Notes: a model not told the origin generated them from the sequence alone. DNA of 33,112 nucleotides from Folioceros fuciformis (GCA_049999805.1 JBNGIO010005796.1:1-33112), one strand, 5' to 3'; shown: positions 5,438-29,460, counted from the stretch's first letter. Numbers and translations: made by a program.

Positions 5438-5485
5438 AAAGACATTCACATAGAAAATGAAAAAAGAAAGCCTGCACAAACTCAC

Positions 5486-9600: not shown

Positions 9601-10637
9601 TCAGGTTCTGTGGGCGAGTTCTAGCGTTAGCACTTATGCACAAAGTTCAAGTGGATGTGGTTCTCGCATTATCGTTCTTCAAGCAGCTTTCTGGTGTACC
9701 TGTGGTGTGGGAGGATGCGAAGGACGCAGATCCCTGCCTGTATGATAGCTGCAAGAAAATCTTAGAAATGGATCCTGCTGTTGTCGATTCAGACATTTTG
9801 GGGCTTACGTTTGTTAGTGAAAAAGAAGAACTGGGTTGTCGGGAGACACTGGAACTGTGTGAAGGTGGCAAGGACATGGTTGTAACCAGTAGAAATCGTG
9901 AGAGGTTTGTTGAGCTTTTGGTGCAGCGTCGCTTGGTAGCTTCGGTGGCTGACCAAGTGAAGTCATTTTCTGAGGGTTTTCAAGACGTGCTCGTGAATGC
10001 AAGTCCTTGTCGATTTTTCCAAGTACTAGACCTTGAAGATCTAGACCAGATGCTATATGGTGACGACCGGAACATATGTCTGAGTGACTGGCGAACTCAT
10101 ACAGAATACCATGGTTACAGCAGTTCGGATCTTCAGATAGTGTGGTTCTGGCAGGTACATATTCGTGAACCTTTCATCATTTCAAGAAGTTGCCAGAGAT
10201 GTGTGTGTAGCATGTGCACCTACGAAGTACTGTTAGTCTTGTATGCTGTGTGTTTCCTGTCCTTGTTTTCCAAGCTTGAGACCTCAAATCTGTAGCATAG
10301 GTCATGTCTGTACGTTTTTCTTTCCATTTGAACTGTATTCCCTCTTGATTGACGCGTGTTCTGGGCTGTGAAGGTAGCGGAGGCTATGACCGCAGAGCAG
10401 CGCAGGAAGCTTCTTTTCTTCTCAACATCCGTCTCGCACTTGCCGGCCCAAGGTTTTGCAGGCCTTTCTTCAAAATTCCATATACATCGTGCTCATACTG
10501 ACATAAGCTGGTTACCGACGGCTCATACTTGCTTTTTTCAACTCATTCTGCCACCCTATACCTCCTACGATATGATGTGCACGCGCCTTCAGGCAATCAC
10601 AGAGGGGCATATTGCAGAAGGTTTCGGTTTCGCCTGA
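6602..10637 (+). CDS. UPL5: HECT E3 ubiquitin-protein ligase with N-terminal ubiquitin-like domain (UPL5-type)
   Basis: Exons 6602-7975, 8232-9492, 9568-10154 and 10374-10637; all GT-AG and frame-consistent (~1161 aa). Ubl domain (LQFFVK..DQRLIFCGRQL..ATLHLVAR). HECT motifs EEATGPGVLREWF, RRRFHPNP, YFRFCGRVLALALMH and catalytic LPTAHTCF. An in-frame upstream ATG exists at 6530. Confidence 0.93.
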
Positions 10638-11008: not shown

Positions 11009-13559
11009 TCAAAGTAAATGGTTCCCGGTCTTTTTGAGCCGTTTCAAAATGTCATCCTTAAGCTCCCGTCGCAACGTTTTGCCTGCCAAGGACTTGGGTA
11101 TGGACGACACGAATTCGACGTGCCTTACTTTCTTGTAGCTCGCCACCTGCAAAGCGTAGTAAGAGCGGTCAAGAGTCTTGCCAGTGTGAAAGGTTATGTG
11201 TTTGAGTGCAAACACTTTAGCTCTGTTACCTTGGCTGCCACGTAGCGTATAACATCGTCTTCGTGGAGATCGCTGTTAGGTGCTAGAACCACGCAGGCTG
11301 CTGGCAACTCTCCTGCCTCGTCATCTGGAAGTCTGCCAATCTCCAGATTGAACATTTTAAGAGCTGTGCGAATTTGATGGAACATTTGCAATGGCCTACC
11401 AGTGTCCTGATGCATTTTACTCACGGTATGACTGCAGCGTCAGCGATAAGTGGGTGGGCCACCAGGATGGCTTCCAGCTCTGCCGGAGGAACCTGTAAGA
11501 ATCCAAGGTTGTGCCGTTTTAGATGCATGGATTCAATCAAAGATGTCGGGACCTACGGAATCATCCTCTGGCGAAAGCTTACAAGTTGCTTCCAGTACCT
11601 GGAACCCTTTATACTTGATGAGCTCTTTCGCTCTCTCGACTATGAAAACATCTCCATCGTCGTCGATGTAGCCTACGTCTCCTGTGTGAAGCCAGCCCTG
11701 CTCATCGATAGTGGCTGCTGTGGCTGCTTCGTTTTTGAAGTAACCTGCAGGTGAACTTGTGGATATTAAAGGAAGGCACTGCAGAGAATTGTCCATCAAA
11801 TTGATCGCGACGTAAGACGTGGAAGTTGCATTCATGGGAGAAGCAATCGGAATGACGTGGGCAAGTGTGCTTCCTGAAGATTCAAGATACCATGCATGGT
11901 GGACTCGCCGCGTACGCATATTTCTCCTGCACGATTTGCAGGCAGGGACTTCCCCGTGTCCGGATCCAGAATTCTCATCTCCGTTCCTGAAGATGAAGGA
12001 GGCGAAAACAACCGATGACTCATGAAGCTGACCAACTATGCACAACCTTGTCATTCTCTGACCAAGGACTCTAACCTCATCTCATGTATGTACCTGGAAC
12101 GAGGAAGCCGACGGAGCCTTTCTTGGCACTCTTTCTGGGATAGCCTGGAGGTGGATGGCTCAGTGTGATGCAGCTGTACTCGGTCAGTCCATATGCCTGC
12201 ATCCACCACATACTCTTAACGGTGAGCATATGAAGGGGTGAATTTATGTCCAATGCAATGTTGAGCAATTGCCTTTGAGAACTGACCTGCCGTAATTCAA
12301 CTCCAGGGAACCTGGTTTCAAATGCCTTTTGGATTTCAGGCGGGAGTGGTGCGGCTGCTGTCATCACTACCTCCAGCTTTAGCTTGCTCAGGTCGAACTC
12401 GTTCACGATCGGACTCTTCACCATCTGAAGGATGATGGGAGGCACGAGAGGGGTGAAGGTTACCTCGTACTTTATCAGGGCTGCCAACATGAGTCGTAAA
12501 TCGTATCTGGGCAGCACCACCAGTGTGCCCTGATACCTCATGGTGGAGCAGCATATCCCCGTTGTGCCATAAATGTGGAAGAAGGGCAGGAGGCCCAACA
12601 CCACATACTTTTTCACAGCAACTAGCTGGGCGGGAGTAGGAGCCACTAGAGGAGGCACTAGTGGCGGGCAAGTGCGGGATGTGTTAGCTAGCAGATTTCG
12701 ATGGGTGAGCTTCACTCCCTTGGACAGTCCTGTTGTGCCCGAAGAGTAAGGCAAAGCACACAGATCGTCCTGCTCCAGTTCACAAGCAACTTGAGCTGGT
12801 CAGGACTCCACTTGAAGTATGCTCACGAGTCACACACCACAGCAGTCATCCGTGGTCACCTGTAAAAGGGGCTCAGGGGGGACGTATTCTGATCCGTCGT
12901 ACTCGAACAAGCGCTGCACTGATGTGGAACCTTCAGGATTTGGTGTCACTGACTTGTCCGTGGAAGCTGCCGAGCCAAGGGCCAGGAGAAGAATTGGCAG
13001 CTGATGCGCGAATTGCTTCACCTTGTGGACGTACGCTGAGTCGGTCACCACGACTTTTGCTTCGGAGTCTTGAATCTTCATTGCCACGATTTTGTAACCA
13101 AGAGTCGAGTCGCTGATTGATCAATGCACGTCCATGTACTACGACGCATGCAATACACAATTGCTTTTGCTTGGAGCTGTAGAAACGCGTTACCTGTTTC
13201 TCAATCTCTTCAGGGTGTGAGTATGGGTTCCCTCCAGAGTACACGCCGCCGGCCCACATGATACCGAGTACCAGAATAAAATACTCGGCCGAGTTGGGCA
13301 GAAGAAGGAACACCACGTCTCCCTTTCGGATGCCCAGAAGGTTTCTAAGCCCGGCGGCCACGTTTTTCACCAAGATTCGAGCTTGGCCGTAGGTGTACCG
13401 CCGCTCGTCCGATGCATCCACAATAGCCACTTTGTGCTCATCTTCAGGCCGGATTCCATTCAACAGAATGAATTCTGGAACAGTGACGTTGGTTGGAATG
13501 GCTGCCGTCGGCAGGCTGCTCTGGAATATGTGTTCCGTGGACTCGGCGGGAGAAGCCAT
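11009..13559 (-). CDS. ACOS5: 4CL-like acyl-CoA synthetase of the ACOS5 (sporopollenin fatty acyl-CoA synthetase) clade
   Basis: Nine exons 13559-13194, 13075-12860, 12769-12287, 12196-12094, 11986-11891, 11744-11599, 11492-11425, 11332-11230 and 11146-11009 (572 aa), all GT-AG and in frame. AMP-binding [43 protein letters not shown]5-type signatures [34 protein letters not shown], AYGLTExSCITL and SIPKSLxGK. Confidence 0.9.
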
Positions 13560-13805
13560 TGAATGGCACGCTCAGGCGGCCCCGACGGGTGAAGAGAGGA
13601 ATTGAAGTGAGGCTGATGTAGGAGCTGCCTGCTGCGCCAAACGGTATGGGTTTTGTATGTTTCTTCAGTGGCGAGCCGTCAGTGGGTAGCGAAAGCGCAA
13701 ACCTTGCATGCACAGTTTCAAGAAATCGGTCGTTGGTTGTTGGGCTACTGAACTCAACCGCGCCTGGTTTCCTGCGCTCCATAACCGGGCGCCGAGCGCC
13801 GGGCC

Positions 13806-13812
13806 GGTAGGT
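13806..13812 (-). promoter_or_regulatory. AC-I-type MYB element (ACCTACC) upstream of the ACOS5-like gene
   Basis: GGTAGGT on + equals ACCTACC on -, ~250 bp upstream of the ATG. A short motif that may occur by chance. Confidence 0.25.
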
Positions 13813-14038
13813 AGAGCTTGCTTGCCCTGCGAGTCTCCTCCGTCATTTTCACTCTGTGTACGCAAATCTGATTTTTTCTGAACGGCTTTATGCTTTCTTT
13901 ACAAGAATGAACGACATAGACGTCGTCCCCTTCCATGGGGATGAGTATGGCATGCCAAAGGGATGCGTCCTCTCTCTAGGTTTTTGTATCCAGAGTAAGC
14001 TAGATTCTGCTTAAGACTCAGCCGCGGGGGAAGTAGAC

Positions 14039-14192
14039 CCCTAGGCCTAAATATCGGTTCGCCAAGGTACGGCATGGTGAATCGACATGCCATGCCATGA
14101 GCATGGCCTTCCTCTCCCCTACTCCTCTCTCTCTTATCCGTGCCAACTCGCCATCGAGCTACCAACTAACTCGGAAAACTAATTCAAGTCCC
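14039..14192 (+). repeat. Left terminal inverted repeat
   Basis: CTAGGCCTAAATATCGGTTCGCC...GCCATGCCATGAGCATGGCCTTCCTCTCCCCT...ATCCGTGCCAAC matches the reverse complement of 23249-23358 with 12 mismatches in 110 bp (hand count). A weaker match continues to AACTAATTCAA. Confidence 0.9.
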
Positions 14193-14850
14193 ACAGCAAT
14201 ATTGCTCGCCCTTTGTTCGTTTCAATTGCGAACGAGAGCGGAGAGAGTGCTATGCTCAAAGCACGACACACGGTAAGAGTTGAAAGACCAAAGGCTGGGG
14301 AGGATGCACGTATTCTGATCGTGCTCCAGCGATGGATGAGGTTGCAATGCATTGTCCTTTTGCAGTTCAGAGGCTTGGTGGAGGGAAATTTTCTTTCAAT
14401 GACTTGGAATGGCAGCAATCCTCATACAAGCATCCATCTTGTCCTGGCCAAGACAAACAACGACAACTAGCTTACATCCCTTGGACCAGAGTGCAGGATT
14501 TCATAGAGGGCATGAACTCATTGCTACATGCTCCTACAAATTATTACAAGGCATCTCGTAGAGGGCCGGCCAACAATACTTCAGTAGTAAGTTGTCTGAA
14601 GCTAGATGCAGCCATTGTCATAACACAGTATGTATGGACCCTAAGGATTCAATCCGTTTACTTTTTGCTTGCTGGTATCATTGAAAGATTTCATCTTCAG
14701 TGTTTTGCTTGCAGTTATTGGTGTGGATATGGGCCACAGGACTTGCGGAATATTCTCATGCCTCCACCACCTGTACCTATTAGTGTGGAGGGTGAGAAGA
14801 AGCGTAGACAGTCTCGGATTGCTAACGGTGAAAGCATCAAACTCGGTTGT

Positions 14851-15146
14851 TGTAGGATCGCTCGAAGAGAGCTACATGGTGAAGGAGAGGAGAGGAGGAG
14901 GCAAGGAGGAGAGGAAAAAGAGAGGTCGCACTCTCACAATAGAGTCTCAATGGCAAAGGAGCTCAAGGGGGTATTTATACCCTCTAGAAGAGCTCCCTAG
15001 GCAGCTTCACAAGAAGTGTACAGGAAGCTACGCAAGAAGCTTCCTACATATTAGCTTAAGCTAATCTAAACTAATGGTACTTAACTAGAGACTAATCTTA
15101 GACTAAACACATTAGTCTAAGCACATTGGGCTTTAATAACCCTACA
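14851..15146 (-). repeat. 3' LTR of copia element (296 bp)
   Basis: Direct repeat of 21029-21293 with ~19 substitutions and two indels (19 and 12 bp) by hand alignment. Confidence 0.95.
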
Positions 15147-15157
15147 ACCTCCCTCTT
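15147..15157 (-). other. Polypurine tract
   Basis: AAGAGGGAGGT on the - strand immediately before the 3' LTR. Confidence 0.85.
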
Positions 15158-15188
15158 AAAGGCCAATTTACCTTCATAGGAGAGCGGT

Positions 15189-18100
15189 CTACCTCATGCC
15201 CATGAGTGTCCGAGCTTGTGCGAATTGCTCCGAAGAGAGCCTCTTGGTAAGAACATCTGCAGGGTTCTGACTAGTGTGAACTTTGACAAGTTGTACCCTC
15301 TTGTCTTCCAACACCTCTCGAATGAAGTGATACTTCACTTCCACATGTTTGGTCTTTGCATGAAACACTGGATTCTTCACCAACTGGATAGCACTCTGGC
15401 TATCACAATGCAACATTGACAGCTCAACCTTGATCCCCAAATCTCCCACTAAACGAGCGAGCCACATGGCTTCCTTGCATGCCTCAGTCGCTGCAACATA
15501 CTCAGCCTCTATGGTAGATAGCGTTATGCACGATTGCAAATGAGATCGCCCTTCTAGTGCACATGAAGACATAACTTGATGTGGACCTCCTTTTGTCCAT
15601 ATCCCCTGCATAATCAGCATCCGTATATCCCTCTACAGATGCATCTTCACTACCAAAACATAAGCACAAAGCTTTCGTACCATTCAAATACCTCATAACT
15701 CCTTTCACTGCCTCCCAATGCTTCTTGCCAGGGTTTGACATAAACTTGCTAACCACTCCCACTGCAAAGGCAATGTCAGGACGTGTAGCAATCATTGCAC
15801 ACATCAAACTCCCTACAGCTGATGATTATGGAATCTTCTCCATTTTAGCTTTGTCCTCTGCAAAACTTGGGCAATCCTTGCTCGACAGTTTCACATATGG
15901 AGGCAACGGAGTACTCAATACCTTCCCCTTCTCCATATTGAAACGTTGAAGCACCTTGTTAATGTATTCAGTCTGAGACAAGTAAAGCAAACGCTTCTGT
16001 CTGTCTCGACCAATACACATGCCAAGAATATGGCTTGCCTCTCCCAAGTCTATCATGTCAAAGCAAGCATTCAACTTTGACTTCAACGTTGAAATCTCAT
16101 CACTGTTAGTCCCAGCAATTAGCATATCATCCACATAGAGTACCAGAATGAGCAAGCTTCCATCCTTCGCTTGCTTCGTATAGAGGCCATGATCCTCATT
16201 GCTACGTTTGTAGCCTTGAGAAAGCATAAATGAGTGGAATTTGAAATACCACTCCCTGGGTGTCTGCTTCAAACCATAAAGGCTCTTCTTTAACCTGCAC
16301 ACTAGACTCTCTTTGCCCTTCTCAATGAAACCCTCGAGAGCTCCTTGGTAAGAACATCTGCAGGGTTCTGACTAGTGTGAACTTTAACAAGTTGTACTCT
16401 CTTGTCTTCCAACACCTCTCGAATGAAGTGATACTTCACTTCCACATGTTTGTTCTTCGCATGAAACACAGGATTCTTCGCCAATTGGATAGCACTCTAG
16501 CTATCACAATGCAACACTTGCAGCTCAACCTTGATCCCTAAATCTCCCACTAAACGAGCAAGCTATAAGGCTTCCTTGCAAGCCTCAGTCGCTGCAGCAT
16601 ACTCGGCCTCTGTGGTAGATAGCGTTATGCACGATTGCAAACGAGATCGCCATGAGACTGCCCCTCCTGTGCACATGAACACATAACCTGATGTGGACCT
16701 CGTTTTGTCCATATCCCCTACATAATCAGCATCCGTATATCCCACGACAGATGCATCTTCACTACCAAAACATAAGCACAAAGCTTTTGTACCATTTAAT
16801 TACCTCATAACTCCTTTCATTGCCTCCCCATGCTTCCTACCAAGGTTTGACATAACCCTACTAACCACTTCCACTGCAAAAGCAATGTCAGGACATGTAG
16901 CAATCATTGCATACATCAAACTCCCTTCAGCTGATGAGTATGGAACCTTCTCCATTTCAACTTTGTCCTCCGTAGAGCTTGGGCAATCCTTGCTCGAAAG
17001 TTTCACATATGGAGGCAATGGAGTACTCAATACCTTCCCCTTCTCCATATTGAAACATTGAAGCACCCTGTTAATGTATTCAGTCTGAGACAAGTAAAGC
17101 AAATGCTTCTGTCTGTCTCGACGAATACGCATGCCAAGAATATGGCTTGCCTCTTCCAAGTCTATCATGTCAAAGCGAGCATTCAACTTTGACTTCAACG
17201 CTGAAATCTCATCACTGCTAGTCCCAATAATTAGCATATCATCCACAAAGAGGACCAGAATGAGCAAGCTTCCATCCTTAGCTTGCTTCGTATAGAGGCA
17301 ATGATCCTCCTTGCTACGTTTGTAGCCTTGAGAAAGCATACATGAGTGGAACTTGTAATACCACTCCTTGGGTGCCTGCTTCAAACCATAAAGGCTCTTC
17401 TTTAACCTGCACACCAGATTCTCTTTGCCCTTCTCAATGAAACCCTCCAGTTGCTGCATGTATACCTCTTTCTGGATATCACCATGCAGAAATGCCAACT
17501 TCACATCCATTTGGACAAGTTCCATGTCGTGCCTCGCAACCAGACCAAGAACGCATCGCAAGGTGGTCATTTTGACAACTGGTGAGAAAATCTCATCAAA
17601 GTCAGTACCTTGCTGTTGCTTAAAACCTTTAGCAACTAATCGTGCCTTGTACTTGGGTTTGCCATAATGGGGTATGTCCTTCATCTTATACACCCATTTG
17701 CATAGCAATGCTTTCTTGCCCCTAGGCAATCGAACCAACTCCCAAGTTTGGTTCTTATGGAGCGAATCCATCTGCGACTGCATCGCCTTCTCCCACTTGT
17801 CCCTTTCGGTCACTGACATGGCCTCTTGATAATAAGAGGCCACCCCACAATCCGTCAGCATAACATAATCAAGAGATGCAACATACATGTTAGGAGGACG
17901 TGAGATCCTTCCTGACCTACAAAGTACTGGCGCCTCGACCGGAGCTGGTTGCACTCTCTCCTCTTCTACAAGCGGAGGAATTTGTTCTTGCACATCACAA
18001 CGTTCAACCTGAGCGGGATGGTCGAGTCCATCTTCATGAAAGACCACCCATCGCACCTCCACAGTTGGAGTAGGCTTCTTGTGCATCTTTGTTTGATTGA

Positions 18101-20216
18101 AGAACACGTCATTGCTGCGAACCATCCTCTTGGCTTCTGGATCCCACAGACTGTATCCCATCTCACCAAATTCACCATAGCCAAGAAAAATACATTTCTT
18201 GGACTTGGGTGCCAACTTGTCCCGAAACTCCTTCGGAACATGGTAGTATGCCTCGCAGCCAAACACTCGTAGATGCTTGTAAGACGGCTTCTTCCCAGAC
18301 CACATCTCCTTTGGAACCTGTTCATCCACAGCCCTATTAGGAGATCTGTTAATAAGATGCACCGCAGTAACCACTGCTTCTGCCCAAATCCGTTAGGCAA
18401 ACTAGAGTTTGACAATAAAGTACGCATCCTTTCCTGGATAGTCCTGTTCATCCATTCAGCCACACCATTCTGGGAAGGAGTGTACGGGGTAGTCAATTCT
18501 CTCCTGATTCCCTTGGAATCACACAATGATTGGAAAGCCTTCGAAACATACTCTCCCCCATTGTCTGTCTTTAGACATTTCAGTAGGAGGCCAAACTGAT
18601 TCTCCACAAGGGTGACGAACTTCTGAAACACTGTCAGAACATCATCCTTTTTCCTCAAAGGATAAACCCACACCTTGTGCGAGAAATCATCTATGAAAGT
18701 GATAAAATAAGATGCACTGCCTAACGATACAATGGGCATTTGTCCACAAACGTCACTGTGAACCAATTCAAGAGGTTTACTTTTGTGTTTACCTCTTGCT
18801 CCATGTGGTGACTTCATCTGTTTCCTATACAGACAGTGCTCACACACGGAGAAATCGGAGAAGTTAAAAGCAGGGACGTAACCAAAACGAGATAGTATCT
18901 TCATTCCTTTTTGAGACATATGTCCTAACCGACTATGCCACAAGGAAACACTTGGCTGTTCCGTTACATAAATCACATGATCCTTGATAGTGGTTACCTG
19001 AAGTGAGTACAAAGTGCCACACTTCGATCCACAAGCTAACACAAGAGAACCTTTGGAGATCTTCCAAGAATGATCTCCAAACCAACAGTGGTAGCCAGAG
19101 TCATCCAACTGCCCTGCATTAATCATGCTTTTGGTCAACTTCAAAACATACCTAACATCCTTCAGTACGAATGAAGATCCATTGTCAAACTTCAGCTGCA
19201 CATCACCAACGCTTGCAATCTCGCATGCGTACTTATTTCCAAGCTGAACACATCCTTTCCTAGTAGCATCATAAGTGCTAAACCACTCCCTATGTGGAGT
19301 AACATGGAAAGATGCTCCAGAGTCAATTATCCAATTACAGAATAAGTGACTCTCCACGGCTGTCAGTTGTGCAGAATCGAAGGAGTAAGAGGTAAGAACA
19401 TCTCCATCATCAACAGAGTTCACCTCGTCACGGTTGACACTCAGACTTTCCTGGTTGTCGCTCTGCTGCTTCTCCTTGCCTTTGTCCTTCTTGAGCTTCT
19501 CGCAATCCCTTCTTATGTGACTCAACATTGTTACGACTACGAAACTTACTACAGGAACGACTTCACTCCTTATACTTCCCCTTTGAAGTGGACCTTCCTC
19601 TCACCATGAGGGCATTGGAACCTTTCGAGGGTTCCATATTCTTCCTGTTTACCTCCTTTGTTAATAGGCTACCTTCTACATTTACAATAGTATGACCACT
19701 GGCAGGAGCGGAATTACTCAGAGCTGTACGAAAAGTGTCCCAACTCTCTGGTAATGTGACCAACTTCTAGAAATATAGCTCTCACGGAATCTGGGAATGA
19801 GATACCTTGAGATGAGAGCTGGCTGAAAATGGTATTGAATTCGTTCAGATGATTAGACATCCTTGTTCCTTCCTTCATCTCCAAGTCCACCAGCTGTTTC
19901 AACCAGTACATCTGAGAAGCCGCACTTTGCTTCTCGTACAGGTCACACAACTTCTGCCATAGCTCATAACTTTTGGTCTTGTCTTTCACGTTGAAGTAGA
20001 CCGACTTCGATAATGTTAGCATGATGGTAAACCTAGCAAGCTCATCTAGATCCTGCCATTCATCCTGAGTCATGCTAACAGGTTTCACTCCTAGCAGCTT
20101 GATGGGCTTGATCTACTTCTTCTGTACTACAACATTATACACTTGTTCTTTCCAGACGGGAAGTTAGTACCATCTAACTTCTCGATATTGAACATGACGT
20201 TTTCGGAGGACGCTAT
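15189..20216 (-). pseudogene. copia gag-pol polyprotein (frameshifted, with stops)
   Basis: gag IEKLDGTNF, protease WIIDSGAS, LWHSRLGH, integrase HSDVCG/TDNGGEY/QNGVAE, RT KARLVAKGF, LKKSLYGLKQ, (Y/F)VDD, and RNase H GYTDAD, TEAEY, CDSQSA, NPADVLTK. Confidence 0.95.
15235..17447 (-). repeat. Head-to-tail duplication of the RT(C-terminal)-RNaseH segment
   Basis: Copy A is 15235-16335 (1101 bp) and copy B is 16336-17447 (1112 bp). Junction AAACCCTC|GAGAGCTCCTTGG. The 11-bp difference is a deletion in copy A near 15550. Confidence 0.92.
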
Positions 20217-21014
20217 GTTTCAAATTCGAAGCAAATCAAGCAAAAGGCTAGTTAGAGAATGGCTGAAATGTAATGTAGATTTTGTTATCCTCACAACTTG
20301 TGCCTTGATTGCTCACAACTGGAGTGTCTCGACCTTCGATCGAAATTTGGTAGCCTCGTGGCTGGGAACTTAGTTGGCTAGCGTTTGCGCTGCCCGAACC
20401 CACGTCTTCGTCGGTGGCGCTTGTATCGACCGAAATATCACTTCTTGGCACCCACGCCGACTACGGCACCTGTACCGTCTACGGCGCCTTCGCCGAACTC
20501 AGCGCCCGCGGCCTAGCCGGTGCCTTAGGCCACTTCACAGCATTGGCGGGTTGGCCACACCTCGAGCCCGCGGCACTCGCATCCGGGTCTAGCGCCGCTG
20601 GCCGGGCTGGCGCCTCTGGCGCTCGGGGTCAGGCGCCTTGGCGCCGCCAGGCCACTCCCCCCCCCCACTCGGGGGGCCTATGCTGCCCGGCCCCCGCATG
20701 CGGAGTTAGGCGCGCCGGACGGGGGCCTGGAGCCCCGCTCCGACCGGGGGCCTAGCGGCTCACGGGGTCTGGGCTGCCCCAGGGCTTGGCACCCCCTTGG
20801 GCTATGCCCGCATGGCCTGGCCGCAATCCGGCAGTTGGGTTTAGCCTGGCACCTACGCCCGCGCGGGGGGAGGGTGCTCCTACGCCCTCTGTGCACCGGC
20901 GCTCTTAGTGACCTCCGCGTACCAGCGCTTTGGGCGCCCCGTGCTCCTCCTAGATGTTACACACGGCCTAGTTCACTCCGATGTCTTATGCACCATCACC
21001 CTTGCTCCACACCT

Positions 21015-21026
21015 GCTCTAATACCA
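21015..21026 (-). other. Primer-binding site (initiator tRNA-Met type)
   Basis: TGGTATTAGAGC on the - strand, 2 nt after the 5' LTR; one mismatch to canonical TGGTATCAGAGC. Confidence 0.88.
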
Positions 21027-21028
21027 CT

Positions 21029-21293
21029 TGTAGGATTGCTCCAGGAGAGCTACATGGTGAAGGAGAGGAGAGGAGAAAGAGAGGTCACACTCTCACAATA
21101 GAGTCCCAATAGCAAGGGAGCTTAAGGGGGTATTTATACCCTCTAGAAGAGCTCCCTAGGAAGCTTCACAAGAAGCGCACAGGAAGCTTCCCGCAGATTA
21201 ACTTAAGCTAATCTAAACTAATGGTACTTAACTAGACACTAATCTTAGACTAAACACATGAGTGTAAGCACATTGGGCTTTAATAACCCTACA
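21029..21293 (-). repeat. 5' LTR of copia element (265 bp)
   Basis: TG...CA ends with a 6-bp inverted repeat; adjacent to the PBS. Confidence 0.95.
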
Positions 21294-23206
21294 GTTGTCA
21301 AGCTTCGTTTGCCATTGCACAGTTACGAAGATGGCCAGTAATTGCTCAAGTAACATTATACGAAACTATGCATGTGGATGTTTTTGGAAGAGTGTGTCAT
21401 GGCCTAGAGTACGCAGGCATGCCAAGAGATGTTAGGGCTCCTCACTTGAGTGCTGACAAGAAGTCATGGGTGAAACATGGTTTATTGTGTAAACCATGTG
21501 TTTGGTGTAAACCTACTAGTACAAGTATCAGCTCTTCACAATTATGGCTTTCGACCTTCACATGAATGGTATTCCGGTAGCATGGGATTTGGCAAGGACA
21601 GTACAAGTGACACCATAGCTAGGTGGTTGACATCTTTTCATGAGGTTCTGTTAAGTAAGGATGCAAATTGGTTGCCCTCTGCAATATTGGTTGATGATTG
21701 TGCAGCTGAGATTGGTGCAATTTGAAAGGTTTACAATTACAGTGTTCATGTTCTACTTTGCCTCTGGCATGTGCGTTGTGCTTGGCTCCGTAATCTTATT
21801 AAGAAAGTCCAAAACAGGGTAGACAAGAAAGCCATATGGCAGGAATTAGGTGAACTGATGTATGTCAAGGGCTCCAGCACATCAATTCAAGATACAATTT
21901 GGGAGGGTGAGCAATTGCTATTTTCCTTCTATGCCAAGTGGGAGAAACGGCAACCCGTGTTCGTGGGCTATTTCAGAACAACCTGGGGTGCACAACTAGG
22001 TTAGTCCATATCTCCAGCCTCGTATTCTCCCTTTTCAAGCTTGTACACATACACATCTTCACAAGGCCTATTTTGATTGCAGGCATGTTCATAAAAATGC
22101 CCGCATGCTTCCACATGCAGGGCAAGACTGTGCCTCTGCTATAGAGGCATGGCATCGGTTTTTTAAGCAGAAACTTAGTCTTACGAGGGCATCTCTTGCT
22201 GGCAGACGAGTAGACTGGCTGTTTTACATTAATTGTGCTTCGTATGTGAACCATTGCAAAGAAGGAGGGTATGTGGTTAACACAACCGAGGAGAAACTGG
22301 TGCACATTGCAATAGATGGGGCAACTCTGATTGAGGATGATAATGTTACTTTGCCTTCCCCACCTTGTACCACAGCTCTATGCAGGAGTTCAACAGATGC
22401 CTATGTGACATATACAATTGAGAATGCATATTCCATGTGGGCTACATGTGAGTGTGCTCAAGGGAGGACAGGCTTTATTTGTAAACACATCGTGAAAGTG
22501 CAAGATATGCTTGGAGTGCTCTCATACACACTCCAGATGAAACGTCAGTATACAGCAACGAATGGTCTGGTAATTCAGGAGCCTGTAACAACTCTTGCTT
22601 TATGTGATAATAGAGAATAGTTGATGGAAAGCGTTTCGTGCAACCTGCAACCCGCTGTGCAGGGTGTTTTATGTAACGAAAGTAGAACATAAGATCAGAT
22701 TCGCTTCCTTGAATAAGATTGCAATGCTATTGTGAATTTGATGCACAAGAATAAGGAAGTCGTGGAGAATGCAGCGCTTTTGGTGAAACGTACACTCATG
22801 GATGTCCAACGTTTGATTGCATATGAGCAGGAAATGCCTGCAGCACGGCAGCCTCTTCAAGCATTCACCACCAACGAGGAAGACAATAACATCGTCAGGA
22901 CTAAGCCATTCTTCTCACCACCGAAGAAAAAGAAGAAGAGAGTTACTTGGAAGTTATCAACAGACAAAGAAAACTAGCGTAGGTGTAGGTGCGATGTAGG
23001 TGCCAGTAATGTCTCCCTTCATATGTTTTGACCAATGCTGCAATTAATCAAAAACTCAGTCTTGGTGATTGTCCTCTCTGCTCGTCTTGGTGATCCTCCT
23101 CCACGCTTTCCTCAGTGCGTCCTAGCTGCGCATGCCTGAACGCTGTGCGTGCTGATGAGTTCGACTTTGTATTGTGCCAGAGTATCGCCATGGTATTCAG
23201 GATGAC

Positions 23207-23360
23207 GGGAATTTGAATTAGTTCCCCTCGCCCCCGGTGGCCCGGTCGCGGGTTGGCACGGATACGAGAGAGAGGGGCAGGGGAGAGGAAGGCCATGCTC
23301 ATGGCATGGCATGTTGGTTCGCCAGGTCGTAACCTGGCGAACCGATATTTAGGTCTAGCC
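23207..23360 (-). repeat. Right terminal inverted repeat
   Basis: Reverse complement of 14039-14192; followed directly by GAAGTAGA. Confidence 0.9.
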
Positions 23361-25279
23361 GAAGTAGAGGCCCTTGAATGGGTGTCGAGGGATCTCTGTG
23401 CCCCATGCGGAGTTCAAAAACGATGCTTGAAATGAGGTAGGGGAGGCATTGTGATCGAGGCAGGCCTCAATCATTGGTAGTGGCGAGAGATTGAGGCCCC
23501 CCCTTAGAAATGTGTCGTTGTTTATTCGAGAGTCCCGGGATACGGGCCTCAAGCCCCGCGATAATGTAGTTGGACAAAGGGGAGTTAGATGCTTGCCGGT
23601 GTTGCAGGCTCATGGGCTAGGTCTAATTCAAAGGAAATGAGAGCAGGCGTTTATTGTATGGAATACCGATACGGTCAAGGTTTGTTTCATAGAATGTTTT
23701 GCCCCTCCGTATATGGTCCAAATGTTTGGGCATCACAAACCTGTCCACATAGGTAGTTGGCAGCCATTTGGGCATCCCGATAGAGACAATGCAGCGTGTA
23801 ATAAGGGTTTTCCTAACTTTTGAGCGGTTGTCATATGTTTTTTTTCGTTTTGACACGTCTGTGTCCCAGACGTTGGAAGCTCGCAAGACCTAGTTGTGGA
23901 GGGGAAGAACGCCGTGTTTTGTAGATGGAGCTTGATGCGGTGGAGGCGAGTATTGTGAGACGCATAGCAGCTGGCGGAGGAGGTTCCCAGGGGACCTAGG
24001 CAATGGTGCAGGGCAGGACGCTTAAGGGGTGGTGATGCGGATCGAAGTTCCGGGTCCAGCATCCCGCCAACGAGGATGGTGTGAAAGCGGCAGCGCAAGC
24101 TCTCCTACTCTGAGGTGTGCTCCTCTAGAGAGGAGGAGGATGACTATGCGTTCACGGTGAGGTGCTGCTCCTGGCAAGCAAGGGCGACGTGCAACAAAAG
24201 GAGGCAACAACGAAGGCAATGTCGCGGACACCCTAGTGGACGCGGTGCATGCTTTGCACAATAGCCTAGGCTTGGTGGAGTTGCTAGAAAGTAATTTGCG
24301 CAAGCTGAGGGCAAACATACGTGATTGTGCAACAGATGTGTAGGCTATCTCTCGTGCTAGGGATCGTGAGGTTTAGGGATGCATGTGGCGTGCAGGGTCT
24401 GGAAATGTAAGCAGGTTAGAGGCACTGGCCTTGGTGTTGCAGAGATGGTAAACCTCTGGAGTTTTTCCTAAATCTGCTATTCGTAGATTGATCTTGTAGC
24501 AGTAGCGTTGGTAGTCTATAGATGTTTTGTGGAAGGTGCTATAGGTTGCCTCCTTGCCTCTGTGGTCTAGCTTAATGAACTTGATGTTTTTGTGAACCCT
24601 ATAAAAGCAGCTGTAATTGCTGTTGTGGCTTCTTTTACCTGCAATCCTTAAGCTGTCATTTGCAGCAAAACTGTTGGAGCAACCTCAAGCTGTAGTATGA
24701 TGGAAATGCAGGCTTGAAAATGATTGTTCAGTGAGAATGGTAGAGGCCCAAAATCCTAGGACATCCCGCAACCTGTGAGAGCTTTTTCCATGCATAAAGT
24801 GGATTTAGGGTTTAGCGTTGTTCTGAATCGGTATTCCATATTATTGAACGATGGAGGATGTCCGTTGTGGGATTTTCCTTTGAACAACAATCTATTCATC
24901 TTATGCGACACAACGACCATGAGTGGTGTCTTAAGAAAGAATTTTGACACCTCCCCTTTGCCTTGTGTGGTATGCCATAGGTTGAATGTGAAACCTTTAT
25001 ATAATTTGTCTCCTTTAAGACTTCCAAAATATATGAGCCCATCTAAAATTCACATAGACATGTGATACAAATCTTTCCATGAAAACCAAAGGTTTGAGCA
25101 ATGCTATGTATTTCTTAGCTAGGCCGATCACATGTTTTTTGTATCATGTGGGCTTTACGATAAACGGGGTATTTTCTATGATTGAAAAAGAGATGGAAAG
25201 TCCCATATACTCCAAAGATTGGAGGAACAACCCCATTAGGGCCAAAGGCAAAAAGAGATACTCTCCCCTGCAAACATCA

Positions 25280-25948
25280 TTATAAAAAATTACCTAATCC
25301 TCCCAAAATGTCATGATGTGGAATAACAAAAGGCCTACCTACCACTGGTGCCGAAGAAGCCGCTTGACCTGCACTTGTTGTTGTTCTAAAAACTGCATTG
25401 GCGAATGCTCCTTGCAAAGCAATGGATGTGTCACGTTGTCGAAAGAAGGCCATCACAGAGGAAAGAGGGAGAACACCATTCCTATTGCTCTGATAAACCT
25501 TGGCGCACTCCTTGATAAACCTTGAAAAGTCCTTGCCCATAGCTCCATGAGTCTCAAGAGCAAGGGAGATGAAAGCATGCCCATCTTGCAAGGGAGAATA
25601 CTTATGGACTTTGGCACTTGTACAACCCTCTCCCGCCCAACAAGGGGGGTTGATGATGACGTGCTCACAAATCGAATCCCTAGTGGGATCCGTAACAACC
25701 ACATCAGCAATATAAACCTGTTCTCCCCTAGTGAAGAAAAGGTCAGCTCTAAGTGAAACCCCATTGCGCAAAGTATATGAACGCTCCCTATATGGAAGAA
25801 ACCCACACTCCCTATCCATTGAGAACATGACATCCCGAACTACATCATGAGTGGCAATGCGGTGCCCCCCAACGGGATAACGTGCCAAATGGGACCCTGT
25901 ATCAACAATGGCAACCCCACAACTGCATGTAGAGAGAGAAAAAGCCAA
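25280..25948 (-). mobile_element. 5'-truncated non-LTR retrotransposon fragment: zinc knuckle + restriction-like endonuclease (CRE/RLE type)
   Basis: CSCG..HLAR (decayed CCHC), THDVVRD, RADL, ADVVVTDP, KVHKY and LALETHG: the motif order of the C-terminal RLE domain of CRE/R2/NeSL-type elements. No RT recognised upstream. Confidence 0.78.
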
Positions 25949-26645
25949 GGTTTAGGCTTATAATAGGTATCATGGATTTGTCCAAGTTTGTCCGAGCCTG
26001 CACTAAATCTATAATAATGGCAAGACTGAGCCTAACCTTGTATTCTTGCTTTCTTTGGTAGAGAGTTTTCATCCCTTTTGCCAGATGTTTAGGACATCAT
26101 CAGTTTTCGACTAGTGGGATTGAGCCGGAGAGAAGGGTTTCCATCCCTCTAAGGCTCTAGGGTGTACATTGGCCAAGTGCGGTATTCATGACGTCATTGG
26201 GCACGAGAAATAACTTCTTCAAATTTAGAGAGAGAAAAGGTCGGCGACCTTGTCTCTCTCAATGCAGGCCTTTCACATTCCTAAAGGAATAGTCCCCTCC
26301 TCCCACTAATAGATAATGCCCCTTTCCATCTCTTTTTTTCATAATAAAGGTTACTCCTTCTCCGAGATGAGGTACGATCCCCCTCACGATTCCTCTAGTC
26401 CTTGAGTAGCACTCGCAATAACTTTGACCTTTACGTTTCTTCCTACTTCATTACTTGGATCCCGATTCCAGTCTCTAGCTCTGGATGCCACGGGCTAGCG
26501 CCTGGAACCTTCCGACGACGCCGCGCGTCCATGAACAATGCTGACCATGCCCAAGGTGTTCATTGTCAAGGTGAAGAAATCGTATTACCTGCCATTACAT
26601 GTACAAGGCGGCTGGCGTGTGGGCAGACAACTTCCAACGAACAGT

Positions 26646-29460
26646 TTAACCCTTTATTTGGCCACTTGGTTGTAGCAAGGTTGTGCCAAGCTGAACCATT
26701 AGGGGATACACGGGCGGAAACTCTTTATCCCCTCTGGCTCTGACTTTAGCAGAAAAGTTATTGAGGGTGACCTTAATAATGTTCCTCCATGCTGCCTCCT
26801 CTCCATTGGAATCCAACCACCTAGAGTACTCAGCTGGAGTTAACTTCGCCTGCTTCATTGGTGACTCCAACTCTTCTGGGGCCCGAGAGTACAGGTGATG
26901 AAGAATAGCACTCGGAGGAAGCTCTTGCAGTAGAGGGCTATTTTCGATCTGATTTGTCTCAAGAAAGATGAAGGGTTTAAAGGCACGCAAAGCCCGATAT
27001 GGTGAACCAAGCTGCTCCACAGGAAATAAGTTTTGGCCCACAACTAGCTCCAGCTCCGCCATGTCCCGTGCCAACTTCAACTTCCCTGCCTCTGACAACG
27101 GCCTTATCAAGGCAGCATGACGCACAAAGAACAGTAACACACGTGATGCCATCTTCCGTGCAAGGCTTGCACAGATTGTGTCTCCAGATGCTGTGGAATA
27201 GCCTGTCGACAGTAATCCAGGTAGGAGCTTCGCGAGAAACTCAGACCGAAACAAGATAACCGTTCTCTGGAATTCCTCCATATAGCTGGAACTGCTCCCT
27301 CCAGGATCCTTCTCCAAAGATGTGGAACCAAAATTCAGATCATGTACCTGCAGGATAATGCTTTCCAGTCTTTCCGCCATGGCTTTGAAGAGAGGGGCAA
27401 TGGAGTCCGATGCTACCCGATAAATGTCCTGTAAAGAAGAGGAGAGAACTTCTGTAGCTGAACTCGGCAGCAGAGATGTTAGCCGTGAGTGCACTTCCTG
27501 TAATTGGAGACAAAGTGTGAAGTTCTTCAATTGCAAAGAATTCGCAGGTCCAGTGACCTGCCTAGAGTCCGATCCTGTGGAGAACTGATGCAGCCAGATG
27601 CACAACATTAGTAGGAGAACATATGAGAGACACCGCAAAATATTCTGAGGAGCACCATTGAAACCAGCATTATCCCCAGAAATCCTAGAGTTACCTGATA
27701 GTCTGCTTTCTCTGCAAACAGATGCAGCACTTTGCCAACTTCACGTAGAACTAAAACAGTAAGTCTTTCCTCTGTTTTTACAGCTTCCACTTCCTCCTGG
27801 ATCCGCGACACAAGTCGCAAGATTTGCTCTTGCGTAGGGATGCTCCCTCTAACAGCAAGCACAAACATTCCATACACCAGGTCACTTAAACTTTTCTGAC
27901 AGCGAGCCAAGTACTCTGTCTGGTAAGGCTCCAACCCGTCAATTAACAGGTCTTTGTCTTCAGGCTTGATAGCAGCTGAAACACCTTTCACATCTGGAAC
28001 GTGTAGAAGTCTTTCCAGCAGATTGTCCACCATATTAAGGAGTTTGGGGTATCCAAGCACAAAATTTTCTTTCACAAAGCTCGAAGCAGTAAACGCAGAC
28101 TTCATTTGACTTGAGAAAGACTTCCCAACTCCTTCCCACACCCGCTCTGTGAGCATAGGATCACCAGCCTGTATAAAACAATTCAGTAGCCAGCAGACAC
28201 GTGAAACAACTTTGGAAGATGGCAGACTTTGGATGCCAAGAAACAGAAAAGCAAAGCCCACAAAGCCTAAGTTCGAGGAATAACAGATTATTTCACCTGG
28301 ACAACTTCCTCTAGAAAAACCAGATGTGAGATTGGATCTCGCTTCTTGGACAGGACACGCTGCAGGTGCCAGACAGCAATAAGAATCGAATGAAGCTGGT
28401 CCATGCATGTTGCCATCCGTTGCCACAGCCCATCCCGTGCTCTTCCCGTCCCTCCAAGCTGAGGTGTGCCAGATCTCTGAACGCCCCCAGGGCCCCCAAG
28501 AGGCCCCACACTAGCTGAGATAGCTTTCATGTCCAGAGCTACGCTAACACTTTTAACTGCCTGAACTTTATACTTGGTAATGAGGTTTTCCACAGTTGCC
28601 TTAAGCTCTCCCATATTGTAGTAGACTTGCAGGAAACTTCCGACCTCTGGTTGGTTTAGAGACTCCATGCCAGTTTCAAGTCCCTTCATGGCTTCACTTC
28701 GAATCCGATTTCCCACTCCTGAAAGCCAGGAGGCCTGTTCATCTATGACATCGACACCAGAGAGATCAGCCTCTCTCCTGACAGTCTCCACCTCATAGAA
28801 GAGCTGAGCCGCTTTCGACAAATCAATCTTAGCTCCTTCAGGAACTTCCACAATTTCCCTCAACTTCTTCAGATGCTTCAGCACGCGGGTAACTGACCTC
28901 AAGAGCTCTACAGTTTCATGCAAAGAAGAAAGTTGCCTCGATTTAGCCTTCATCGACTTGTACGGATCCGCAATCTCGGATCTGACTCTGCCAACAGATG
29001 CCTGCAAACTGTCGACTCCTGCCCTCACCACAGCCAGCACAGTTTCCGCCTCTTTCAGGCTGGAAATCGGCTTGAGCAGCTCATCGTGTCTAAGGAACAC
29101 TTCACTTCTCAGCTGCTTCTCGAGGAGCTGGATGCCTTCCTCCAGCTTCTCGGAAGAGGCTGCGGCAGATCCGCTGCTCAAAGCATCACTAGCAAATTGC
29201 GTGGCATTGAAGTCCTCTGACAAAAACTTGGAAAAAACTGTGTCTTTCTCGAATTCCTCGATTGCAGTCCTGGCAGACGCTTCAGCGGATTCTGTCACAC
29301 CGACGTCCAATCCGCTCAACGAGCTAGATCCATTCTTCTCGTGGTGAAACGAATGCCCTGATCTGAAACTGTGTAGATGCTGAAGCCGCGGTGATTGGCC
29401 CGGGGAAGCTCGGTGAAGCGAGCTTCCAGTTCTCTGCAGCGACATGGTGGTCGCTGTCAT
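26646..29460 (-). CDS. COG5: Conserved oligomeric Golgi complex subunit 5
   Basis: Exons 29460-28297, 28168-27695 and 27584-26646 (858 aa), GT-AG and in frame. Motifs FNATQFAS, LEKQLRSEV, VWHLQRVLSKKRDP, FVxGYPKLL, FVRHAALIRPLSEAGKLKLARDMAELEL and YRALRAFKP. Confidence 0.93.

What the first reader, a model, noticed from the sequence alone, without database searches (positions are those of the whole stretch)
14030..23368. A bounded DNA transposon carrying a transposase of the plant 'SWIM zinc finger' gene family
Seen: ~154-bp TIRs, a perfect flanking 8-bp repeat, and a two-intron ORF between them with motifs IPWxRVxDF, YWCGYGPQD, KxGCxxxF..HVDxxGxxCHG, GIPVAW, VDD, CLWHV, AIEAWH and SWIM. Recalled knowledge, not searched: this motif series matches the Arabidopsis At4g13970/At1g60560-type SWIM proteins, generally annotated as stationary host genes of MULE-like ancestry. 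Inference: here the family is still packaged as a mobile element, a candidate for the transposon lineage from which those genes were domesticated. It may be an undescribed TE family.
Basis: partly seen in the sequence, partly recalled or inferred. Interest (0 to 1): 0.82.

Follow-up and report, generated by a model that had tools for sequence, protein, structure and literature searches.

The report
Broken Mutator-like transposon with SWIM transposase
This is a real but dead copy of a cut-and-paste "Mutator-like" jumping gene in a plant genome, and its enzyme gene is a distant cousin of a conserved, unstudied plant gene family that apparently arose from such elements.

Summary
Window 14038-23360 is a DNA transposon. 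Its terminal inverted repeats (TIRs) are 123 nt at 87% ungapped and about 152 nt at 82% gapped. It is flanked by a perfect 8-bp duplication, GAAGTAGA. A Ty1/copia retrotransposon (14851-21293, own duplication GTTGT) is nested in its gene.

Contigs from public runs show the element is multi-copy. In the best-holding run, 8 contigs break at 14041 into unlike flanks. One copy lacks the copia, and internal-deletion derivatives exist in related species.

The gene encodes a transposase of the Mutator-like (MULE) superfamily. Its relatives carry the Pfam MULE, ZSWIM1-3 RNaseH-like and SWIM domains, and none carries a FAR1, MuDR or KDZ domain.

This copy is dead. It has the copia insertion, a deletion of about 120-150 codons that removes the first catalytic Asp, a frameshift and a TGA stop.

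In trees it lies outside the conserved seed-plant host-gene clade ("zinc ion binding / SWIM zinc finger family") but inside the same land-plant clade. Its exact place is unsure.

The Arabidopsis genes themselves were never seen. Repbase and Dfam could not be checked.

Verdict: a new member of a known kind, of moderate interest.

The parts
14030..14037 (.). Left target-site duplication, GAAGTAGA
   Evidence: Identical to 23361-23368 and directly abuts the element.
14038..14192 (+). Left terminal inverted repeat (core 14041-14163)
   Evidence: One search gives 123 nt at 87%. One search gives 152 columns at 82%. In one search other copies break at 14041-14044 into unlike flanks.
14332..14586 (+). 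Transposase exon 1 (ATG at 14332; motif IPWTRVQDF)
   Evidence: tblastn of P0010 matches 14365-14592. The splice sites are inferred from GT/AG dinucleotides and reading frame, not shown by RNA.
14701..14850 (+). Transposase exon 2, first part (YWCGYGPQD ... KLGC), cut by the copia insertion
   Evidence: tblastn of P0021 matches 14680-14850.
14851..21293 (-). Nested Ty1/copia LTR retrotransposon. LTRs at 14851-15146 and 21029-21293; target duplication GTTGT at 14846-14850 and 21294-21298.
   Evidence: LTRs are 93.2% identical, K2P 0.072. Pfam finds RVT_2, rve, gag_pre-integrs and Retrotran_gag_2 on the minus strand. In one search a contig of another copy runs from 14842 straight into sequence like 21296 onward.
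21299..21490 (+). Transposase exon 2, second part (Cys/His-rich N-terminal domain, HVDVFGRVCHG)
   Evidence: tblastn of P0004, P0021 and P0025 matches 21296-21490. The frame is continuous with 14850 across the copia.
21491..21519 (+). Junction of an internal deletion. About 120-150 codons present in all relatives, including the first catalytic Asp (motif MDATFGTNKY), are missing here.
   Evidence: P0004 residues 133-252 have no counterpart. Searches with that segment from 4 relatives gave nothing significant in the element; the best hit had E 0.19 on the wrong strand.
21520..21585 (+). Transposase piece YKYQLFTIMAFDLHMNGIPVAW. A 1-base frameshift follows, between 21586 and 21599.
   Evidence: reading frame 21301 here against frame 21300 downstream.
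21600..22001 (+). Catalytic core piece holding the second Asp (VDD), the CLWHV motif and an in-frame TGA at 21723-21725
   Evidence: The query P0001 found 180 relatives at E<=1e-3.
22093..22568 (+). Exon with the catalytic Glu motif (AIEAWH) and the SWIM zinc finger (22447-22488)
   Evidence: The Pfam SWIM match is weak: E 0.066, 13.2 bits against a cut-off of 19.6.
22717..22977 (+). Probable last exon (C-terminal tail with KKKKKR, then a stop)
   Evidence: ORF. By eye it resembles the C-terminus of P0004. This is inferred and was not scored.
23208..23360 (-). Right terminal inverted repeat (core 23236-23358)
23361..23368 (.). Right target-site duplication, GAAGTAGA

Best explanation
Window 14038-23360 is an old, defective copy of a cut-and-paste DNA transposon of the Mutator-like (MULE) superfamily.

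What the intact ancestor encoded. It carried one transposase of about 700-800 residues with three parts:
- an N-terminal Cys/His-rich domain that presumably binds DNA;
- an RNase-H-like DDE core, with motifs ..MDATFGTNKY.., ..VDD.., CLWH and ..IEAWH..;
- a C-terminal SWIM zinc finger.

How it works (inferred from what is known of MULEs, not tested here). The transposase binds the roughly 150-bp TIRs, cuts the element out and integrates it elsewhere, duplicating 8 (possibly 9) bp of the target.

History of this copy. It landed about 470 bp upstream of an AMP-binding (4CL-like) gene. It then lost the first catalytic Asp region by an internal deletion, acquired a frameshift and a stop, and was hit by a copia retrotransposon. 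It cannot make transposase. At best it could be moved in trans.

The family. It is multi-copy in this species and in related species, and it has spawned deletion derivatives and apparently many short TIR-only (MITE-like) copies. The transposase belongs to a green-plant MULE clade. That clade also contains conserved host genes, in seed plants and in liverworts, that look like domesticated transposases.
For: Structure:
- One long inverted pair that extends to 152 nt when gaps are allowed.
- A perfect 8-bp duplication abutting both ends.
- Passages read in Dupeyron 2019 (PMC6446971) give MULE target duplications as 8-11 bp and TIRs as often hundreds of bp.

Mobility (contigs of 4 runs laid on 13500-14850 at 80% likeness or more):
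- 141, 33, 100 and 64 contigs were laid for X1, X3, X4 and X6.
- Summed word depth in X1 is 6.5-9.5 in the flank (13546-13913), 260-313 in the TIR and 60-258 inside the element.
- 8 contigs in X1 break at 14041 into flanks that disagree with each other (agreement 0.45). One contig does so in X3 (at 14042) and one in X4 (at 14041).
- One X1 contig passes 14842 straight into sequence like 21296 onward, so that copy has no copia.
- X3 and X4 contigs join 14524 to about 21325 and 14371 to about 22275. These are deletion derivatives.

Homology:
- All 22 relatives tested by tblastn hit the element collinearly, the best at E 2e-41.
- 16 of 22 relatives match Pfam MULE at E<=0.01, 11 of them above the curated cut-off.
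- 11 of 12 match MULE, 10 of 12 match ZSWIM1-3_RNaseH-like and 8 of 12 match SWIM.
- The motif series is shared.
- The element keeps the CLWH state, which most host-clade rows have changed to R or Y; Cannabis and Elaeis keep H.

A second element of the clade. Metagenome contig L004 (8842 nt) is bounded by 130-nt arms that are 99% complementary. It holds an open, full-length transposase gene with MULE at 32.2 bits.

Decay of this copy.
Against: - The window's own translated pieces hit no Pfam MULE model at E<=1 (0 of 6 pieces). Superfamily membership therefore rests on relatives.
- The outermost 2-3 bases of the two ends do not pair, so the exact termini and the duplication length (8 or 9) are unsure.
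- Only the left end was laid on reads. The right end, the copy number and the existence of any intact copy in this genome are unknown. No whole genome is held.
- Contig depths are not copy numbers (tool caveat).
- No tree with MURA, FAR1/FHY3, MUSTANG or Jittery could be built, because none of those sequences was available from a tool.
- L004 has no flanks, so no target duplication can be seen. Inverted contig ends can also be assembly artefacts.
Confidence: 0.87

Rival explanations
1. A stationary host gene, or pseudogene, of the SWIM family that happens to be flanked by two independent insertions of a short TIR-type (MITE-like) element in opposite orientation. On this reading it is not one mobile unit.
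For: In one search the TIR core (14052-14143) is far more abundant than the inner part in two other species. Summed depth is 4916-8147 against 71-930 in X4, and 6362-9518 against 43-457 in X6. Short TIR-only elements therefore exist and could land independently.
Against: - The 8-bp duplication flanks the composite as a whole, not each arm.
- The inner sequence is itself multi-copy in X1, with depth 60-258 against 6.5-9.5 in the flank.
- Other copies join the TIR to the inner sequence (X1 joints 14163->14259 and 14164->14267).
- Deletion derivatives join the left inner part to the right inner part.
- The protein keeps transposase-type motifs.
Confidence: 0.04
2. A Pack-MULE-like non-autonomous element that captured a host SWIM gene. 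On this reading the gene is cargo, not the element's own transposase.
For: MULEs are known to capture host gene fragments (abstract of PMC6446971). Conserved host genes of this family exist.
Against: - The gene is full-length from N- to C-terminus and fills almost all of the non-copia interior.
- It is itself of MULE-transposase type.
- It groups outside the host-gene clades.
- It keeps the CLWH state that most host-clade rows lack.
- L004 shows the same gene inside another TIR-bounded unit.
Confidence: 0.04
3. An element of another superfamily that also makes 8-bp duplications, such as Zisupton/KDZ, hAT or P.
For: The 8-bp duplication. A SWIM finger is also reported for Zisupton (recalled, not checked here).
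Against: No relative matched any KDZ, hAT or P transposase Pfam family. This holds for 0 of 22 at E<=0.01 and 0 of 12 at E<=0.1, whereas the MULE and ZSWIM1-3 RNaseH-like domains match.
Confidence: 0.02

Closest known systems
Mutator-like elements (MULE superfamily; MuDR, Jittery, Hop and others)
   Same: - Long TIRs, an 8-11-bp target duplication and a single large transposase.
- Relatives carry the Pfam MULE (PF10551) core and a C-terminal SWIM finger.
- The element inserted near the 5' end of a gene.
- Deletion derivatives exist.
   Different: - The N-terminal domain matches neither the FAR1 (PF03101) nor the MuDR (PF03108) DNA-binding model in 0 of 12 relatives.
- A 176-residue core query found only 180 representatives at E<=1e-3 among 1.84 billion proteins, the best at 36% identity. 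This is therefore a separate, small clade and not ordinary MuDR or FAR1.
- The relation to named MULE groups was not tested by a tree.
Conserved seed-plant 'zinc ion binding / SWIM zinc finger family' genes
   Same: The same domain order and motif series: IPxxRxxDF, YWCxYGP, RGCxCHF..HxD..G..CHG, PVAW, DD, CLW, IExYH and SWIM. They lie in the same land-plant clade in the trees (support 98, 92).
   Different: - These are host genes. Identity runs 61-89% from conifers, Ginkgo and Amborella to eudicots, and there are three subclades that each hold Ginkgo and angiosperm members.
- The H of the CLWH motif is often replaced by R, and the first Asp is replaced by N or H in angiosperms of one subclade.
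- The window element is only about 30-35% identical and lies outside their clade.
- The Arabidopsis proteins themselves were never retrieved.
FAR1/FHY3 and MUSTANG (known domesticated MULE transposases of plants)
   Same: A precedent for MULE transposases turned into conserved plant genes (PMC4948706 abstract and passages; PMC5715367 passages).
   Different: - No FAR1 domain appears in the relatives.
- At4g13970 and At1g60560 are named neither in the main text of either paper nor in the 10 supplements of PMC5715367.
- The clade here reaches ferns, a lycophyte, liverworts and green algae.
Metagenome contig L004
   Same: It carries a transposase of the same clade (about 32% identity to the window) between long inverted ends.
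   Different: - Its frames are open and the first-Asp region is present.
- Its arms are 99% complementary.
- It has two extra large ORFs on the other strand with no Pfam match.
- Its TIR sequence is unrelated to the window's.
- It has no flanks, so no duplication is visible.

Membership tests
MULE (Mutator-like) superfamily of DNA transposons | The transposase has the MULE / RNase-H-like DDE domain (Pfam PF10551), scored on the window's own translation. | tested here: inconclusive
   0 of 6 window pieces hit MULE at E<=1. The domain is split here by a deletion and a frameshift.
MULE (Mutator-like) superfamily of DNA transposons | Clear homology to proteins that carry the MULE domain. | tested here: met
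   - All 22 relatives hit the element by tblastn, the best at E 2e-41.
- 16 of 22 relatives match MULE at E<=0.01, 11 of them above the cut-off.
- 11 of 12 match.
MULE (Mutator-like) superfamily of DNA transposons | A complete catalytic D, D, E triad with the C..H motif. | tested here: not met
   The second Asp (VDD), CLWH and the Glu (AIEAWH) are present. The first Asp region is deleted in this copy. It is present in TE-like relatives and in L004. This bears on whether the copy is active, not on its ancestry.
MULE (Mutator-like) superfamily of DNA transposons | Long terminal inverted repeats. | tested here: met
   123 nt at 87%; 152 nt at 82% with gaps.
MULE (Mutator-like) superfamily of DNA transposons | A target-site duplication of 8-11 bp. 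| tested here: met
   8 bp perfect, or 9 bp with one mismatch. The 8-11 bp range is from a passage of PMC6446971.
MULE (Mutator-like) superfamily of DNA transposons | Several copies at different genomic sites. | tested here: met
   For the left end only: 8 X1 contigs break at 14041 into unlike flanks, and there are copies in three other species' runs.
MuDR-type and FAR1/Jittery-type MULEs | An N-terminal MuDR (PF03108) or FAR1 (PF03101) DNA-binding domain. | tested here: not met
   0 of 12 relatives at E<=0.1 and 0 of 22 at E<=0.01.
MuDR-type and FAR1/Jittery-type MULEs | Groups with MURA, FAR1/FHY3, MUSTANG or Jittery in a tree. | not tested
Zisupton / KDZ transposons | A KDZ-type transposase domain. 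| tested here: not met
   No KDZ family appears among the Pfam matches of 22 and of 12 relatives.
Seed-plant 'zinc ion binding / SWIM zinc finger family' host genes (At4g13970/At1g60560 type) | Falls inside the conserved host-gene clade. | tested here: not met
   The host clade has support 100 without the window element. A position as its sister is not rejected (AU p 0.096).
Seed-plant 'zinc ion binding / SWIM zinc finger family' host genes (At4g13970/At1g60560 type) | The Arabidopsis genes At4g13970 and At1g60560 belong to this clade. | not tested
   No Arabidopsis row appears among the 120 listed of 612 hits. The only link is by name: 'zinc ion binding' (P0253) and 'SWIM zinc finger family protein' (P0223, P0065) in the clade, and AT4G13970 = 'Zinc ion binding' in a table of PMC6265505.
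Seed-plant 'zinc ion binding / SWIM zinc finger family' host genes (At4g13970/At1g60560 type) | Shared domain order and motif series. | tested here: met
   Motif columns; sequences.

The most novel reading that the evidence does not exclude
The window element and the intact-looking contig L004 may be the first structurally defined mobile members of a green-plant-wide MULE clade, found in algae, liverworts, a lycophyte, ferns and gymnosperms.

On this reading the clade was domesticated at least twice:
- once before the seed-plant radiation, giving three conserved paralogues of the 'zinc ion binding / SWIM zinc finger family' genes;
- once in liverworts, giving the Marchantia 8g13000 type.

These domestications would be older than, or comparable in age to, FAR1/FHY3 and MUSTANG. 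I found no description of them in the papers searched.
Probability: 0.35. Interest if true: 0.55.

Novelty: new member of a known kind. Interest (0 to 1): 0.4.

Why it matters
The seed-plant 'zinc ion binding / SWIM zinc finger family' genes are strongly conserved. Identity runs 61-89% from conifers to eudicots, and there are three old paralogues. The papers searched here report no function and no origin for them.

A bounded, multi-copy transposon with the same protein architecture shows that the lineage was, and perhaps still is, mobile in non-seed plants. It also gives an outgroup for dating and rooting the domestication. And it shows which residues changed when mobility was lost: the H of CLWH, and the first Asp in some angiosperms.

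The element itself is an ordinary dead transposon with a nested retrotransposon.

Tried and rejected
- Whole genome: none is held, so there was no genome-wide TIR census and no empty-site test.
- Pfam on the window's own pieces gave only weak, sub-threshold matches (SWIM E 0.066, plus chance-level hits).
- A word-index protein search with 22108-22617, looking for longer proteins, found 332 candidates and none at E<=1e-3.
- Protein Data Bank sequence search with the family profile gave only two chance hits at E 0.9.
- Earlier findings of this scan gave nothing by place, sequence or words.
- Zisupton/KDZ, hAT and P superfamilies were rejected because relatives match MULE models and none of theirs.
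- The first-Asp segment of 4 relatives was searched against the window at E<=50. Nothing credible was found in the element, so the segment is deleted, not displaced.
- No other copy or fragment of the element lies in the window.
It was replaced by LG+G4 on 68 rows and by the mixture model on 39 and 38 hand-picked rows.
- L004's TIR was not found in the other 8 metagenome loci, so no target duplication could be obtained for that family.
- In one search the stretch 13868-14005 next to the element is uncovered in the three other species' runs. Nothing can be said about an empty site there.
- Papers: At4g13970 and At1g60560 occur in only 2 papers of the library, both times as table entries. They are absent from the main text of PMC5715367 and PMC4948706 and from the 10 supplements of PMC5715367.
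- Not reached: the supplements of PMC4948706 and PMC6446971 were not read, and no search listing here returned Hoen and Bureau 2015 (recalled); each may bear on whether the family is already listed.

Full report
**1. The observation**

In 13500-24000 there is exactly one long inverted pair: 14041-14163 and 23236-23358, 123 nt, 87% complementary. With gaps it runs to 152 columns, 124 identical, spanning 14041-14192 against 23358-23208. Directly outside lie GAAGTAGA at 14030-14037 and at 23361-23368. At one placement an 8-bp identity has chance 4^-8. The outermost 2-3 bases of the two ends do not pair, and a 9-bp duplication with one mismatch fits too, so the termini are known only to within about 3 bases. 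No other copy of the element lies in the window.

**2. The nested insert**

Positions 14851-21293 are a Ty1/copia retrotransposon on the minus strand.
- Its LTRs are 14851-15146 (296 nt) and 21029-21293 (265 nt). Both run TG..CA. They are 93.2% identical over 265 aligned columns, with K2P 0.072 and 31 gap columns.
- It is flanked by GTTGT at 14846-14850 and 21294-21298.
- Pfam finds Retrotran_gag_2, gag_pre-integrs, rve and RVT_2 in copia order.
- Removing 14851-21298 restores the codon series ..KLGC|QASF...
- A contig of another copy in run X1 passes from 14842 straight into sequence like 21296 onward. The copia therefore arrived after this family had spread.

**3. The gene**

On the + strand, pieces collinear with relatives of 700-800 residues lie at the following positions:
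- 14332-14586
- 14701-14850
- 21299-21490
- 21520-21585
- 21600-22001
- 22093-22568
- probably 22717-22977

The gene is broken in four ways:
- the copia insertion;
- a deletion of about 120-150 codons between 21490 and 21520, which in every relative hold the first catalytic Asp (..MDATFGTNKY..). A direct search for that segment found nothing in the element;
- a one-base frameshift between 21586 and 21599;
- a TGA at 21723-21725.

Splice sites are inferred from GT/AG dinucleotides and reading frame only. No RNA was examined.

**4. Is it mobile?**

No genome is held, so I laid contigs of four public runs from four coded organisms on 13500-14850 at 80% likeness or more.
- 141, 33, 100 and 64 contigs were laid.
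- In X1, the likely source species, summed word depth is 6.5-9.5 in the flank (13546-13913), 260-313 in the TIR and 60-258 inside the element.
- In X1, 8 contigs break at 14041 into flanks that disagree with each other (agreement 0.45). One contig does so in X3 and one in X4.
- Contigs in X3 and X4 join 14524 to about 21325 and 14371 to about 22275. These are the internal-deletion derivatives typical of DNA transposons.
- In X4 and X6 the TIR core is far more abundant than the interior (4916-9518 against 43-930). This suggests many short TIR-only derivatives.
- At several TIR positions most other copies carry the base that the right TIR has (for example 14078 and 14082, T here and C elsewhere). 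Part of the 13% mismatch between the TIRs is therefore decay of this copy.

Caveats: these are contigs, so depth is not copy number. Only the left end was examined.

**5. What family?**

A HMMER search of 1.84 billion representatives with 21474-22001 (stop read as X) gave 180 proteins at E<=1e-3, 16 at E<=1e-10 and none at E<=1e-30. The best identity was 36%.

Named relatives come from the following organisms:
- ferns (Adiantum, Ceratopteris);
- a lycophyte (Diphasiastrum);
- liverworts (Riccia, Marchantia, Calypogeia);
- gymnosperms (Ginkgo, Taxus, Cryptomeria);
- green algae (Mesostigma, Enallax);
- angiosperms.

Of 22 longer relatives, 16 match Pfam MULE at E<=0.01, 11 of them above the curated cut-off. 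Most also match ZSWIM1-3_RNaseH-like, and several match SWIM. In a set of 12 relatives the counts are 11, 10 and 8. None matches a FAR1, MuDR, KDZ or hAT model. The window's own pieces match no MULE model, which is expected given the deletion and the frameshift.

The passages I read in Dupeyron et al. 2019 (PMC6446971) give 8-11-bp duplications and long TIRs as MULE traits. The element is therefore a MULE-superfamily transposon of a small, separate clade.

**6. Relation to host genes**

A search from the Cannabis member found 612 proteins at E<=1e-10. The 120 listed are 52-100% identical to it, including Amborella at 68%, Ginkgo at 64% and Cryptomeria at 61%, mostly over about 99% of the length. 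This is a conserved host gene. Some members bear the names 'zinc ion binding' and 'SWIM zinc finger family protein'. A table in PMC6265505 gives AT4G13970 the description 'Zinc ion binding'.

How the tree rows were chosen:
- One search used 68 rows: the window, the 43 of 150 representatives that are at least 400 residues long, and 24 others.
- Searches used 39 and 38 hand-picked rows. I dropped the long-branch rows P0035, P0125, P0055, P0045, P0080 and P0028, and used P0292 in place of its fragment P0046.

What the trees show:
- The seed-plant host clade has support 100 and splits into three subclades, each with Ginkgo and angiosperm members.
- A liverwort clade (Marchantia, Riccia, Calypogeia; 75-86% identity) also looks like a host gene.
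- The nearest neighbours of the seed-plant host clade are gymnosperm proteins with near-identical paralogues on different contigs (Cryptomeria, Taxus). Support for that grouping is 95-97.
- The window element lies in the same land-plant clade (support 98, 92) but outside the host, seed-plant and fern clades.
- It joins the lycophyte protein at support 82, with a long-branch warning. Without that row it falls at the base of the clade.
- Forcing it next to the host clade costs 12.4 log-likelihood units, and the AU test gives p 0.096, so this is not rejected.
- The root is not inferred; the algal rows were used as the outgroup.

**7. Signs of domestication against mobility**

TE-like rows (Adiantum, Diphasiastrum, Cryptomeria multi-copy, Riccia, the algae) and the window keep CLWH. 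The Marchantia clade (SLWY) and most seed-plant host rows (CLWR) have lost the H; Cannabis and Elaeis keep H. Angiosperms of one host subclade have N or H in place of the first Asp. The Glu motif is kept nearly everywhere. This fits host genes that no longer cut DNA, but it is inference.

**8. A second element**

A scan of metagenome contigs with P0023 gave 9 loci that are 82-93% identical to it in protein and 70-81% identical to L004 in DNA. One of them, L004 (8842 nt), begins and ends with 130-nt arms that are 99% complementary. It holds open frames covering the whole transposase, including the first-Asp region, with MULE at 32.2 bits. It also has two further large ORFs on the other strand that have no Pfam match. 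It is about 32% identical to the window protein, and its TIRs are unrelated. It has no flanks, so no duplication is visible. Inverted contig ends can be artefacts.

**9. Mechanism**

Shown: the structure, the multi-copy state, the homology and the defects of this copy.

Inferred from established knowledge of MULEs: the transposase binds the TIRs, excises the element and integrates it with a staggered cut that yields the 8-9-bp duplication.

Recalled and untested: that the N-terminal C..C/H..H..CH domain is a WRKY/GCM1-like finger. No Pfam model of that clan matched.

The copy sits about 470 bp upstream of the start of an AMP-binding (4CL-like) gene. This fits the known preference of Mu elements for gene 5' ends, which is stated in a passage of PMC12973397.

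**10. Verdict**

The element is real and well bounded. It is a dead member of a MULE clade.

The claim that it is the source lineage, and the claim that the family is undescribed, are open.

Searches of the paper library found no description of this clade or of the origin of these host genes. Repbase, Dfam and several supplements could not be consulted.

Noticed in passing
window 15235-15839 and 16336-16951: The nested copia carries an internal tandem duplication of about 1.1 kb (90-93% identical), so part of the RT/RNase H region is present twice. Its pol frames are also broken between the integrase and RT. The element is defective; it was described only.
   Followed up: partly
window 20350-21000: A GC-rich stretch (0.594 in the 20001-21000 bin) lies inside the copia between gag and the LTR at 21029. 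It holds long Ala/Gly/Pro/Arg-rich ORFs on both strands. Its origin is unknown; it could be captured or inserted sequence.
   Followed up: no
window 14052-14143, read against runs X4 and X6: In two other species the TIR core has summed contig depth about 10 to 100 times that of the element's interior. Many contigs leave the TIR at 14118-14135. This suggests a large population of short TIR-only (MITE-like) derivatives or a related family.
   Followed up: partly
L004 1-8842: A metagenome contig bounded by 130-nt arms that are 99% complementary. It has an open, full-length transposase gene of the same clade, a subterminal repeat (37-161 against 181-304, about 85%), and two large minus-strand ORFs (5165-6172, 335 aa; 6255-8024, 589 aa) with no Pfam match. 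It is possibly an active autonomous element with accessory genes.
   Followed up: partly
proteins P0163, P0222, P0265, P0248, P0157 and others (alignment): Host-gene clades differ from TE-like members at catalytic motifs. CLWH becomes CLWR in most seed-plant host rows and SLWY in liverworts. The first Asp becomes N or H in angiosperms of one subclade.
   Followed up: partly
window 6464-10295 (+), 12077-13571 (-), 26646-29490 (-), 30481-32043 (+): Neighbouring host genes have unusually long exons:
- a HECT ubiquitin ligase with a ubiquitin domain;
- an AMP-binding (4CL-like) enzyme whose start lies about 470 bp from the transposon;
- COG5;
- a PLP-dependent decarboxylase-fold enzyme (sphingosine-phosphate-lyase-like by eye).
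   Followed up: partly
window 25280-25951 (-): A 223-residue open frame with no Pfam match at E<=0.001. It may be a remnant of another mobile element.
   Followed up: no
window 593-911: Tandem repeats (period 92, 2.2 copies; periods 17 and 32) lie in a strongly G-over-C skewed region (GC skew 0.34 in 1001-2000), with long Ser-rich ORFs on the minus strand.
   Followed up: no
window 13624-13851, read against runs X3, X4 and X6: The left flank is held once per run in three other species, with 21-26 differing letters over 200-228 bases (about 10%). All three share an 86-base skip at 13537-13624. This looks like orthologous upstream sequence of the AMP-binding gene and would be useful for an empty-site test.
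   Followed up: no
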